DNA from: Octopus sinensis
Taxonomy: Eukaryota
Reading direction: 5' to 3'
DNA length: 64,000 nucleotides
Assembly (NCBI RefSeq): GCF_006345805.1
Contig: NC_043000.1
Coordinates: 150,598,001 to 150,662,000 of the forward strand
A program made the position numbers. Every line of letters begins with the position of its first letter. Within the stretch, counting starts at the first letter, position 1. Below, piece after piece: positions 60,501 to 63,500 of the stretch.

Positions 60501-63500
60501 CCAAGGTGCCACGCAGTGGGACTGAGCCCGGAACCATGTGGTTGGTAAACAAGCTACTTACCACACAGCCACTCCTGCGCCTAATGATTGCGTGTTTTTT
60601 TTCTTAGTTTCATCACTATAAACTGCAAATATTCTAGGAACTTCCTTCTGAGTTTCATGGAGTTGGTTGAGCATGCTTTGTGAAGCAATCACCAGCATAG
60701 GATCATAGGATCACTCGGCTCGTCCGTCGATGAAGAGCGCGGCTATCCGCATGAACTGATGCGAATTGCAGGACTCAGTGAACATCGACACCTCGAACGC
60801 ACATTGCGGCCCCGGGATCCTATCGTCCCGGGGCCCCGTCCGGTTGAGAGGTACAATGGCAGTGCCCCAGCATGGCCACAGCTCATGAGCTGAAACTAGA
60901 ATCAATCAATCATAGAAAGGCATTCTCCAAAATGCTTTGTATTTTGGGATTTATAAATAGTGAGAGGACATGATTTCAGATTCATAACAATGGTTTTGCT
61001 GTAGCCTGAGATGACTGTGGAACAAGGATTACTTTAAATGTTATGATGGTCATTCTAGGAAGAATCTTCTTCACACTGTTGGGAGATTTTTGTGCACAAG
61101 GGCTAAGCTGAATTCCTACTCTTCCAGTTCTTTTACTTTTCTTTTTATCTTTTACTTGTTTCAGCCTTTAGACAATGGCTATGCTGGAGCACTGCTTTCA
61201 AGAATTTTCAGTCGAATGAATCAACCCTAGTACTTGCTTTTTTAAATCCTGGTACTTATTCTATCAGTCACTTTTGCTGAACTTCTAGGTTACAGGGACC
61301 AACACCAGTTGTCGAATGATAGTGGGGGATAAACACACACACACACATGCGCGTGCGCACAGGCGCGACGGGATTTTTTTCAATGTTCATCTAGTAGTTA
61401 ATGCTTTCCCAGGGTGCCATGCAGTGGGACTGAACCTGGAACCTTGTGGTTGGGAAGCAAACTTCTTACCACACAGCCATGCTGTGGTCCCCTCCCCACT
61501 GAACCAAATATATAAATGTCCAGTCTTCTCTCACTATTTGATATTCTGGGTAAATTCATTATGGTAAAAGTAATTCATTATGTAAAATGCATATCATGTC
61601 CCTAGTAACTGTTGATATCTCTTGTTCAGATAATGGGATTCAGAGTTGGCCTCACAGAAGGGACGACAAGGCACTGAAACTCCAGGTGGTTTGCTATGCT
61701 TGAGAAGGCATGTCAAGCTAAGAAAAATCATGGTTCTCTTTGCATACAACCATGTTCCCCACATTACCTCTCCAGCTGAGTGTTCATTATCTTGTGGGCT
61801 TGTGGGTGCTAATGCCACATAAAATGGCATCTATACTGGTACCGCGTAAATGCACCCATGCCAGTGCTGCATAAAAGCATTCAGCATACTCTGTAAAGTG
61901 GTTGGTGTTAGGAAGGGCATCCAGCCCATAGAAACCATGCCAAAACAGACAGTTGGAGCCTGGACAGCTCTTCATCTGGCCAGCTCCTGTCCAAACGTCC
62001 AACCCATGCCAACATGGAAAACAGACATTAAAAGGTGATGATGATTTAGGGTTCACACATTGAAGTTTGAAATTATGGAAATACTTTTGCAGCTGAGCAA
62101 TGAAGAGTTTTTACTTTGGCTTTTTAAAGTTGATCCACAGCTGGTATCACAGCAGAAAGTATTTTTCAGCTAGCTGCATGATAGCTGATGCAATATAAAG
62201 ATATCGTTTTAGCAGACATTATTTCTAACATCTTTAGGAATGCGGTGATCCTGGCCACTACCCTCACATTACTCAGCATCATGTGAGTGTTGCCATTGGT
62301 CAGTAGGTGACTCTTTCACAGAAACTGCACATTCAGTATGTTGTTTTCCATAGTATTACCTGTAGTTCTTCGGCTCTTTGCTTTCCCAAAAAGTGACTTG
62401 TATTTTGTTCTGGGAGTTTTATTTTCATAGTTACCATTAACCTGTATCTAGAAGCTCTTCCTCTGGTTGTCCCCTGGGAACCTTGCTATGTAGGAGTTCT
62501 CTCTCTCTCTCTCTCTCTCTCTCTCCCAATCCTCACCCTGTATAACATCTGTCCTAATGATTGTGGAAGGCATGAACTTTCAGATAGGCCATGATAACAA
62601 TAAAAAAATCATGTTTCACCATTTAACCAGTCACAATGATTGGCTCATTGGATTTCATCACTGAAAATAACCTTCTATGCCTAAATACCAATACTCATCA
62701 GAAGGGATCCTATACGCACACAATTATTTCCGTGCTTTAATGGCTAAAATTAACAAGTTCTTAAATTAAAAGTGGAAAAATAGAAAGCTAAACTACATCA
62801 TCATCATCATCATCATCGTTTAGTGTCCGTTTCCGCGCTAGCACGAGTTGGACGGTTCAACTGGGGTCTGAGAAGCCAGGGGCTGCACCAGGCTCCAGTC
62901 TGATCTGGCAGTGTTTCTACAGCTGGATGCCCTTCCTAACGCCAACCACTCCGCGAGTGTAGTGGGTGCTTTTTACGTGCCACCTGCACAGGTGGCAGGG
63001 GAGTCTGGCATCGGCCACAATCGTTTGGTGCTTTTAATGTGCCACCGGCATGGAAGCCAGCCAAGGCGGTGCTGGCAACGGCCACTTTCGGATGGTGCTT
63101 TTTATGTGCCACCGGCACAAAGAATATAATTCCGTTGAATGAATTAGTTCTGATCATTGTATACTGTCTACTAGAATTTGACCGAGTTCAGAAACCAGCA
63201 AACTGAAAACTTCAAAATGTCTTTCATGTGACAGGTATGTGTTTAATAACAAAATGATCTGTCAAAAATGCATTCATTGTTTTATTCAAACTCAGATTCA
63301 ATGCTTTGAACAATTCCCTGAATATACCATATTTTGCAATTTTGTCACTTCTCGTCAACAAGCAGTTAAAGGACGCCTTCCTACAAGGATTGAAATAAAG
63401 CATCAAGTCTCATGGGAGCTTGAAGCTATTATTGAGAAGTTCAATCAGTTGATAAGTGCCACTCATTGAAAGTCAATTAAATCGTTCACAACAATATTAC

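What the first reader, a model, noticed from the sequence alone, without database searches (positions are those of the whole stretch)
60702..60915. 5.8S rRNA fused to a SINE/LINE-type 3' tail with a TSD: candidate 5.8S-derived SINE or chimeric retrogene
Seen: about 145 nt of 5.8S rRNA followed directly by GGCAGTGCCCCAGCATGGCCACAGCTCATGAGCTGAAACTAG and an (AATC)n tail. ATCATAG is duplicated at 60702-60708 and 60909-60915. The tail parallels the family 1 SINE tail (GGCGGTGCTCCAGCATGGCCGCAGTCAAATGACTGAAACAAG), keeping the terminal hairpin with a different sequence. Known: SINE heads from tRNA, 7SL, 5S, 28S and U snRNAs are described; I do not know of an established 5.8S-headed family. Inference: an RT template switch from a LINE tail onto 5.8S rRNA. 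If multicopy with a shared junction, it is a new SINE class, even though 5.8S has no internal Pol III promoter.
Basis: partly seen in the sequence, partly recalled or inferred. Interest (0 to 1): 0.72.

Follow-up and report, generated by a model that had tools for sequence, protein, structure and literature searches.

The report
5.8S rRNA retrocopy with LINE-type tail
A 5'-shortened copy of 5.8S ribosomal RNA was pasted into this SINE-rich genome fused to the short 3' tail that the local retrotransposons use, most likely a one-off by-product of retrotransposition; whether it belongs to a new SINE family could not be tested here.

Summary
Window 60708/9-60857 (+) is a 5.8S rRNA sequence (Rfam RF00002, 102 bits, E 1.6e-24). 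It lacks the first 13-14 positions and ends within about 4 nt of the mature 3' end. No 18S or 28S is found in the 64 kb.

It runs straight into a 39-nt two-hairpin module (60858-60896), then TAG and (AATC)3. ATCATAG flanks the whole unit at 60702-08 and 60909-15.

The same module ends 18 other elements in the window, mostly a tRNA-headed SINE. In the 5.8S copy, hairpin 2 differs in sequence but keeps its pairing through two double changes.

This is the anatomy of a target-primed chimeric retrocopy: reverse transcription began on a LINE or SINE tail and switched to the 3' end of mature 5.8S rRNA.

The SINE reading is not supported here:
- There is one copy in the window.
- No other tail has this hairpin or microsatellite.
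- No A or B box was found.
- No donor LINE is present.

No eukaryotic genome collection was available, so genome copy number, the species' own 5.8S and the donor LINE remain untested. I put a multicopy family at about 0.25.

The parts
60702..60708 (.). 5' copy of the target-site duplication, ATCATAG. The last G could equally be the first base of the 5.8S part.
   Evidence: Longest shared string between the two ends. P(>=7 nt) = 0.056 for unconstrained random window pairs.
60709..60857 (+). 5.8S rRNA-derived segment. It covers Rfam model positions 14/15-154 plus CAAT. The first 13-14 positions are missing.
   Evidence: 102 bits, E 1.6e-24, and 1 of 25 model pairs flagged non-canonical; 17 CpG, observed/expected 1.28 against 0.45 for the window; no second copy in the window.
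60858..60896 (+). 39-nt tail module. Hairpin 1 is 60858-60877 (sequence-conserved). Hairpin 2 is 60879-60892 (CAGCT-CATG-AGCTG). AAAC follows at 60893-60896.
   Evidence: It scores 54.4 bits against the model built from the 17 window copies (itself one of them). 12 predicted pairs. Pairs 25/33 and 26/32 are changed on both sides relative to the SINE copies and still pair.
60897..60911 (+). TAG followed by the (AATC)3 microsatellite, the 3' end of the retrocopy.
   Evidence: This is the only exact AATCAATCAATC in the window.
60909..60915 (.). 3' copy of the target-site duplication, ATCATAG. It overlaps the last microsatellite unit by ATC.
60192..60575 (-). Context only: a full-length family-1 tRNA-headed SINE copy with the type A tail, 126 nt upstream of the 5' target-site duplication (133 nt upstream of the 5.8S segment).
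61158..61483 (-). Context only: a diverged SINE variant with the same tail module, about 240 nt downstream.

Best explanation
The locus is a LINE-mediated chimeric retrocopy, a retropseudogene.

Proposed sequence of events:
1. A non-LTR retrotransposon of the kind that recognises its own 3' end (two hairpins plus a short tandem repeat) nicked the target at ...ATCATAG.
2. It primed on the (AAUC)n repeat of its own RNA or of a dependent SINE RNA.
3. It copied the repeat and the 39-nt module.
4. It then left that template and continued on the 3' end of a mature 5.8S rRNA.
5. It copied 5.8S back to about position 14-15, where synthesis ended and the cDNA was joined to the upstream target end.

Shown: the parts, their order and orientation, the junction position, the flanking duplication, the kinship of the tail with the window's SINE tails, and the absence of rDNA context.

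Inferred: the template switch itself, the identity of the enzyme, and that the copy is inert. It is 5'-truncated and has no Pol III promoter.

I think this locus more likely belongs to a sporadic or low-copy class than to an amplified family, but that sub-claim is untested.
For: 1. 5.8S identity, and no 18S, 28S or ITS context in 64 kb.
2. The Rfam model ends at 60853 and the tail module starts at 60858. The fusion is therefore at or within about 4 nt of the mature 3' end, as expected for an RNA-level event on processed 5.8S.
3. The module is the one that ends 18 other elements in the window. 17 sequences are in alignment A1, including this one, and 2 more were found by the covariance model at 29.4 and 20.8 bits.
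4. Hairpin 2 pairing is kept through two double changes.
5. Three tail types occur, each with its own hairpin 2 and its own microsatellite. This is what related LINE lineages with specific 3'-end recognition would give.
6. Tail-only copies at 3680 and 48968 start at the same module edge. Reverse transcription on these tails therefore often stops or leaves the template there.
7. A 7-nt duplication flanks the whole unit and overlaps the microsatellite, as expected for repeat-primed TPRT. Family-1 SINE copies also join flanks ending in ATA or TTA, with short duplications.
8. Both flanks are unique in the window, so the unit is not part of a larger repeat.
9. Little decay: 1 of 25 model pairs is broken, and CpG observed/expected is 1.28 against 0.45 for the window.
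10. Precedent: chimeric LINE-1 insertions with U1-U6, U3, 5S, 28S, tRNA, 7SK, 7SL and Y RNAs (passages of bioRxiv 10.1101/2025.02.02.635956).
Against: - No donor LINE or SINE with this tail type is present in the window. 0 of the 20 ORFs scanned carry an RT or endonuclease domain.
- The duplication is short and partly microsatellite.
- The tail's folding energy is not better than shuffles.
Some differences from the pan-eukaryote consensus could therefore mean a separately evolving 5.8S-like lineage rather than a fresh copy.
- Finding a truly single-copy element in one 64-kb window is unlikely a priori. This argues for more copies in the genome, as independent chimeras or as a family.
- No read-level support could be checked.
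Confidence: 0.75

Rival explanations
1. The locus is one 5'-truncated member of an amplified 5.8S-headed SINE family. A founder chimera of this kind became transcribed and is mobilised through its type C tail by a partner LINE.
For: - The architecture is small-RNA head plus LINE-type tail plus microsatellite plus duplication.
- The tail has intact hairpins and the 5.8S part keeps 24 of 25 model pairs.
- One copy in a single 64-kb window is much more likely if the genome holds thousands of copies. This is inference and depends on how windows were chosen.
- Cephalopod genomes carry very large families derived from several small RNAs: about 24,000 5S-derived and about 1,300 U2 loci in the giant squid (passage of PMC6962438).
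- A 28S-derived SINE exists, SINE28, as listed in passages of PMC10946416 and PMC4758252.
Against: - One copy in the window, and no second type C tail.
- No A or B box at up to 2 mismatches in the 149-nt head.
- 5.8S is a Pol I product without an internal promoter (established knowledge).
- The giant squid passage names 5S, tRNA and U2 as extreme, but not 5.8S.
- No 5.8S-derived SINE turned up in the library searches.
Confidence: 0.25
2. The fusion was made at the RNA level by ligation of a tail fragment to the 5.8S 3' end before reverse transcription, rather than by RT template switching. The chimeric RNA was then retrotransposed as one template.
For: The DNA product would be identical, so the anatomy fits equally well. 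RNA ligation has been discussed for sense-oriented LINE-1 chimeras (passage of bioRxiv 10.1101/2025.02.02.635956).
Against: Nothing in the sequence distinguishes it from template switching. Tail-only copies that begin at the same module edge fit an RT that leaves the template there. From recall, not tested: 5.8S 3' ends are made by exonucleases and are not an obvious ligase substrate.
Confidence: 0.1
3. Two separate events happened by chance at one place: an older orphan 5.8S fragment or retropseudogene, then a later insertion of a 5'-truncated tail-only element exactly at its 3' end.
For: - Tail-only copies exist in the window (3680, 48968).
- CAAT just before the module (60854-60857) also occurs within the (AATC)n run. 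A 4-nt inner duplication therefore cannot be excluded.
Against: - The insertion would have to hit within about 4 nt of the mature 5.8S 3' end.
- The 7-nt duplication brackets the whole unit, not the tail alone.
- There are no ITS or rDNA flanks.
Confidence: 0.04
4. The junction is an assembly or read chimera.
For: None from the sequence. rRNA fragments are common contaminants of libraries (general knowledge).
Against: The structure is coherent: duplication, microsatellite end, junction at the mature 3' end, unique flanks on both sides. A random misjoin would not give a flanking duplication.
Confidence: 0.02

Closest known systems
Chimeric LINE-1 retrocopies of small RNAs (U6/L1, U3/L1, 5S/L1, 28S/L1 and others)
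   Same: A cellular small or ribosomal RNA is fused 5' of a LINE 3' end in one insertion with one pair of duplications. Chimeras in the sense orientation are attributed to template switching or RNA ligation, and such copies do not propagate further (passages of bioRxiv 10.1101/2025.02.02.635956; abstract of PMC4476161 in the listing).
   Different: - The RNA partner here is 5.8S, which that paper never mentions (0 occurrences).
- The tail is not a poly(A) L1 end. It is a 39-nt two-hairpin module with an (AATC)n repeat.
- Only about 55 nt of the donor is present.
- The host appears to be a mollusc.
Chimeric retrogenes made by the MGL LINE in Magnaporthe grisea
   Same: Template jumps by a non-L1 LINE fuse cellular RNA copies to a LINE 3' end (abstract of PMC2104539 in the listing).
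   Different: A fungal system with other RNA partners. I read the abstract only.
SINE28 (28S rRNA-derived) and SINE3 / 5S-derived SINEs
   Same: Sequence derived from ribosomal RNA forms the head of a LINE-dependent retroposon (passages of PMC10946416 and PMC4758252).
   Different: Those are multicopy families, and the 5S-derived ones carry the 5S internal Pol III promoter. Here there is a single copy in the window and no promoter motif.
SINE/LINE pairs with a shared 3' tail (stem-loop plus short repeats), such as the eel UnaSINE1/UnaL2 pair
   Same: The tail consists of conserved hairpins followed by a short tandem repeat. It is shared across different heads in the window, which is the basis on which a LINE mobilises other RNAs. 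Kajikawa and Okada 2002 is cited in PMC4758252. The details of that system are recalled, not read.
   Different: The partner LINE was not identified here. Its clade is unknown. RTE is a lead only: an octopus RTE LINE has a microsatellite 3' UTR (passage of PMC9115989).
The window's own family-1 tRNA-headed SINE
   Same: It has the same 39-nt module: 29 of 39 positions are identical to the majority sequence, and hairpin 1 is identical at 18 of 20. The insertion style is the same.
   Different: - The head is tRNA-like, with an A-box match at 1 mismatch.
- The shared region is about 100 nt longer upstream of the module.
- Hairpin 2 is CAGTC/GACTG.
- The repeat is AAGTAAAAG-like rather than AATC.
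- Its resemblance to CORE-SINEs or OR2 is recalled and was not tested.

Membership tests
SINE (amplified, Pol III-transcribed non-autonomous retroposon) | Head derived from a small RNA and carrying an internal Pol III promoter (A and B boxes or a 5S-type ICR) | tested here: not met
   no match to A-box or B-box consensus motifs (typed from recall) at up to 2 mismatches in 60709-60857. The control SINE head matched the A box at 1 mismatch but did not match the B-box consensus at up to 2 mismatches, so the B-box test has limited power. 5.8S is transcribed by Pol I as part of the rDNA precursor (established knowledge).
SINE (amplified, Pol III-transcribed non-autonomous retroposon) | Many genomic copies with the same head/tail junction and different target-site duplications | not testable with these tools
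   One copy in the 64 kb. No eukaryotic genome collection was on hand. The only collection scan possible covers prokaryote genomes and gave 0 hits, which says nothing about this question.
SINE (amplified, Pol III-transcribed non-autonomous retroposon) | 3' tail shared with a partner LINE | tested here: inconclusive
   The tail module is shared with 18 other elements in the window. No LINE carrying it was found: 0 of 20 ORFs scanned have RT or EN domains.
Chimeric retrocopy by template switching during TPRT | Two unrelated RNAs fused in the same orientation, with the 3' part being a retrotransposon 3' end | tested here: met
   5.8S and the tail module are both on the + strand and adjoin at 60857/60858.
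Chimeric retrocopy by template switching during TPRT | Junction at the 3' terminus of the acceptor RNA, with no precursor or spacer sequence | tested here: met
   The Rfam model ends at 60853 and the tail starts at 60858. No ITS, 28S or 18S was found. The exact mature end in this species is unknown, so the statement holds to within a few nt.
Chimeric retrocopy by template switching during TPRT | A single target-site duplication flanking the whole chimera | tested here: met
   ATCATAG at 60702-08 and 60909-15. This is modest on its own (P 0.056 for unconstrained pairs) and is partly microsatellite.
Functional 5.8S rRNA gene in an rDNA unit | Full length, and lying between ITS1 and ITS2 with 18S and 28S nearby | tested here: not met
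   Model positions 1-13 have no real counterpart: 3 of 13 are identical. No SSU or LSU hit in the window at gathering score or at E up to 1.
LINE 3' end recognised by its own RT (stem-loop plus tandem repeat) | Conserved hairpins supported by covariation, followed by a short tandem repeat | tested here: met
   12 pairs, 2 of them with changes on both sides; three tail types, each with its own hairpin 2 and its own repeat. The sample is small, and the alignment is dominated by 13 near-identical SINE copies.

The most novel reading that the evidence does not exclude
The locus is a member, or the fossil of a founder, of a 5.8S rRNA-headed SINE-like family. That family would be mobilised by a microsatellite-tailed LINE through the 39-nt two-hairpin module. 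It would be the first retroposon family headed by 5.8S, and one that amplifies without a canonical internal Pol III promoter. A milder version: 5.8S rRNA is a recurrent template-switch acceptor for this LINE group, as U6 is for L1. That would give many independent copies that share both ends, because of the fixed 3' terminus and a possible RT stop near position 14.
Probability: 0.25. Interest if true: 0.7.

Novelty: new member of a known kind. Interest (0 to 1): 0.36.

Why it matters
As a single event, it shows a LINE that recognises a specific 3' tail, rather than L1, making a small-RNA chimera in a mollusc-type genome. The acceptor is 5.8S rRNA, which I did not find among described chimera partners or SINE heads.

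Such chimeras are the supposed raw material for new SINE families. This locus has the head-plus-minimal-tail form expected of a founder.

The window also gives a compact view of the minimal recognised tail: a 39-nt module in three variants, each co-varying with its own microsatellite. That makes the specificity of the partner LINEs testable.

If the element proves multicopy, it would add a new SINE class and raise the question of how it is transcribed.

Tried and rejected
- Second copy in the window. Rfam at gathering score and at E up to 1 found only this 5.8S hit. blastn of the 149-nt part against the window gave only the self-hit and a short internal inverted match.
- Same tail type elsewhere in the window. 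The hairpin-2 string at up to 3 mismatches hit only itself and its palindromic echo. AATCAATCAATC at up to 1 mismatch gave 3 matches against 1.01 expected, and the other two (544, 13783) have no module.
- Donor LINE. 20 of the 30 stop-to-stop ORFs of 120 aa or more were scanned against Pfam. The 10 left out lie in the (TTCT)n tract at 21898-23279. 0 of 20 have RT or endonuclease domains. The only matches were weak HEAT hits below cut-off and low-complexity hits.
- tRNA genes by ARAGORN: 0. The SINE heads are too diverged for it.
- Junction in public genomes. The one collection open to me, genome contigs, holds bacteria and archaea only. It gave 0 exact matches, so this is not a test of copy number. 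The second scan that was allowed was not used.
- Tail strings in the literature: 0 papers.
- Species check. An Atlas search with the HEAT-like ORF gave only generic HEAT-like clusters at 0.90-0.92 and no useful taxa. It is consistent with SINE-rich octopus genomes (passages of PMC8967140) but was not verified.
- Rejected: a functional rDNA copy or a DNA-level rDNA fragment (no ITS, 18S or 28S; 5'-truncated).
- Rejected: the weak miRNA-family rows. All are far below gathering scores and lie in (TA)n/(TG)n-type repeats.
- Not checked:
  - the species' rDNA 5.8S, genome copy number, read support and orthologous empty sites;
  - the collections metagenome contigs and viral contigs, which are closed;
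  - supplementary tables, which are closed. Rfam counts per family in cephalopod genome papers (for example the giant squid paper, PMC6962438) might list 5.8S locus numbers.
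Full report
**What is there**

The window was scanned against all of Rfam. The only match at gathering score is 5.8S rRNA (RF00002) at 60695-60853 on the + strand: 102 bits against a gathering score of 42, E 1.6e-24. A permissive scan at E up to 1 added no other rRNA. Its other rows are miRNA-family matches far below their cut-offs in simple repeats, plus one scaRNA (SCARNA7) match likewise far below its gathering score.

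In the printed alignment, real similarity begins at model position 14 (GGAUCAC..., window 60708). Only 3 of the first 13 aligned positions are identical, so the head of 5.8S is missing and the aligner stretched over flank. The model ends at 60853.

Four bases (CAAT) follow. ATCATAG occurs at 60702-60708 and again at 60909-60915.

**The tail**

The 11-nt core CCAGCATGGCC, at up to 1 mismatch, occurs 21 times against 0.56 expected. On inspection:
- 17 of the 21 lie in a recognisable 39-nt module.
- One (52737) is the first half of a module, interrupted.
- Three (9082, 15111, 53597) show no module.

The 17 break down as follows:
- 13 copies of one tRNA-headed SINE of about 340-435 nt, which are 0.8-10.2% from the window majority sequence;
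- two diverged SINE variants (26570-, 61196-);
- one tail-only copy (3680);
- the 5.8S element.

I aligned the 17 (A1). The consensus fold has two hairpins and 12 pairs. Hairpin 1 is conserved in sequence. Hairpin 2 varies. In the 5.8S copy, pairs 25/33 and 26/32 are C-G and U-A where the SINE copies have U-A and C-G, so both pairs changed on both sides and still pair.

The single-sequence fold gives the same two hairpins. Its energy is not better than shuffles, however: -14.9 kcal/mol, z -1.35, with 19 of 200 shuffles folding as well. The support is comparative, not energetic. It also rests on few independent lineages, because 13 of the 17 rows are near-identical.

A covariance model built from A1 and run without filters over the window returned:
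- the 17 training sequences (47.9-69.1 bits);
- two further copies, a degenerate SINE at 51085-51123(-) at 29.4 bits and a second tail-only copy at 48968-48996(+) at 20.8 bits;
- 26 other rows at E of 0.086 or more, which are hairpin echoes or noise.

**Three tail types**

| Type | Hairpin 2 | Linker | 3' repeat | Where |
|---|---|---|---|---|
| A | CAGTC-AAAT-GACTG | AAAC | AAGTAAAAG-like | the SINE copies |
| B | GGCC-TTCG-GGCT | AAAAC | ATTTTTAAGG-like | 3680 and 48968, tail-only |
| C | CAGCT-CATG-AGCTG | AAAC | TAG(AATC)3 | only the 5.8S element |

A hairpin and a repeat that change together are what related retrotransposon lineages would show if each recognised its own 3' end. This is inference.

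In type A, the similarity among SINE variants extends about 100 nt upstream of the module. In the two B copies and the one C copy, recognisable sequence starts at the module's 5' edge, and the two B copies have unrelated upstream sequence. Reverse transcription on these tails seems often to stop or leave the template right after the module.

**Why a retrocopy and not rDNA**

- There is no 18S, 28S or spacer context.
- The flanks at 60584-60701 and 60916-61120 are unique in the window.
- The 5.8S part is truncated at the 5' end and complete at the 3' end, to within a few nt.
- Both parts are in sense orientation.
- The unit ends in a microsatellite.
- One duplication brackets the whole.

The duplication alone is weak. 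5.6% of 20,000 random pairs of windows in this repeat-rich sequence share 7 nt or more, and 4 of the 7 nt coincide with the repeat unit. That overlap is nonetheless what priming of the nicked target on the RNA's terminal repeat would give. The window's SINE copies show similarly short duplications at flanks ending in ATA or TTA.

**Mechanism proposed**

Target-primed reverse transcription began on a type C tail RNA, from a LINE or from a SINE that borrows its tail. The enzyme copied the repeat and the module, about 55 nt, then switched to the 3' end of mature 5.8S rRNA. It copied 5.8S to about position 14-15, where the cDNA was joined to the upstream end.

The parts and their order are shown. 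The switch is inferred. Ligation of the two RNAs before reverse transcription would give the same DNA and cannot be excluded.

One untested idea rests on recall. Vertebrate 5.8S carries a 2'-O-methylated U just 5' of the GGAUCAC motif. The copy starts immediately 3' of the homologous position, so its 5' end might be an RT stop rather than random truncation.

**Age and state**

cmscan flags 1 of the 25 model base pairs as non-canonical (C44-A57). That change is of the CpG-to-CpA type. The 5.8S part keeps 17 CpG, observed/expected 1.28, in a window whose overall value is 0.45. Both hairpins of the tail and the duplication are intact. This points to a fairly recent insertion, or to a source RNA under structural constraint.

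Several positions that are upper-case in the Rfam consensus differ in this copy. Without the species' own rDNA 5.8S, I cannot say whether these are lineage-specific features of the real gene, decay, or a separate lineage.

**SINE or one-off**

Against a SINE:
- There is one copy in the window.
- The tail type is unique in the window.
- The head is truncated.
- No A or B box at up to 2 mismatches. The control SINE head matched only the A box, so the B-box test is weak.
- 5.8S is a Pol I product.

For more copies in the genome: a truly unique element would rarely fall into a given 64-kb window. Cephalopod genomes also hold very large families derived from several small RNAs, with about 24,000 5S-derived and about 1,300 U2 loci in the giant squid. 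5.8S is not named among those extremes (passage of PMC6962438).

I put an amplified family at about 0.25. The decisive search needs eukaryotic assemblies, which no tool here offers. The only open genome collection is prokaryotic and gave 0 hits.

**What is known**

A 2024 review of rDNA and transposable elements lists 5S-promoter SINEs and TRIMs and the 28S-derived SINE28. In the 9 places where it mentions 5.8S, it does so only as an rDNA component (passages of PMC10946416). A mollusc SINE paper lists tRNA, 5S, 7SL, U1/U2 and 28S heads, and names template switching as the route by which SINEs gain modules (passages of PMC4758252).

A 2025 preprint catalogues LINE-1 chimeras with U1-U6, U3, 5S, 28S, tRNA, 7SK, 7SL and Y RNAs (passages). 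It has 0 occurrences of "5.8S".

Five phrases for 5.8S-derived elements or pseudogenes found 13 papers, of which 12 were listed. Judged from titles and abstract openings, they concern small-RNA fragments, or rDNA pseudogenes in fungi and cacti.

Octopus genomes are reported as SINE-rich (tRNA-Core, tRNA-Deu) with RTE-BovB expansions (passages of PMC8967140). An octopus RTE LINE has a microsatellite 3' UTR (passage of PMC9115989). That makes RTE a lead for the partner, nothing more.

These searches cover the held library only. Repbase, Dfam, subscription papers and supplements were not visible.

**Verdict**

This is a real, well-formed chimeric retrocopy of 5.8S rRNA with a LINE-type tail. The mechanism is of a known kind, with a partner RNA I did not find described. 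The SINE-family claim is open and, on present evidence, the less likely reading.

Noticed in passing
window 3680-3730 (+) and 48968-49025 (+): Tail-only elements of a second tail type: hairpin GGCC-TTCG-GGCT, AAAAC, then ATTTTTAAGG-like repeats. They start at the module's 5' edge and have unrelated upstream sequence. The 48968 copy has an internal deletion in hairpin 1. The 3680 copy may be flanked by TATAGGT.
   Followed up: partly
window-wide, e.g. 2947-3288 (+), 42076-42455 (+), 60192-60575 (-): A tRNA-headed SINE with an internal (TA)n(TG)n tract and an AAGTAAAAG-like terminal repeat occurs 13 times in 64 kb, 0.8-10.2% from the window majority sequence. Two diverged variants and one degenerate copy (51085-51123, -) are also present. 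Its similarity to CORE-SINEs is recalled and was not tested.
   Followed up: partly
window 52728-52800 (+): The first half of a tail module is broken off and followed by (CAT)n and another repeat family. That family also sits inside the SINE variant at about 26.5-27.0 kb. This is probably a nested insertion.
   Followed up: no
window 21941-23197: A (TTCT)n microsatellite of about 1.25 kb, open in all six reading frames. It accounts for 10 of the 30 long ORFs.
   Followed up: yes
window 25849-26403 (+): A 184-aa open frame with weak HEAT-repeat matches below Pfam cut-offs (E 3.3e-4), and HEAT-like nearest clusters in the Atlas at 0.90-0.92. It may be an exon of a host gene.
   Followed up: partly
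whole window: CpG observed/expected is 0.45 overall. SINE copies show CpG-to-TpG or CpA differences at several sites, which suggests methylation-driven decay in this genome.
   Followed up: no
window 60696-60713: The unit CATAGGAT appears 2.2 times in tandem. It is produced by the target sequence meeting the GGAT at the start of the 5.8S part. It is not a separate repeat.
   Followed up: yes
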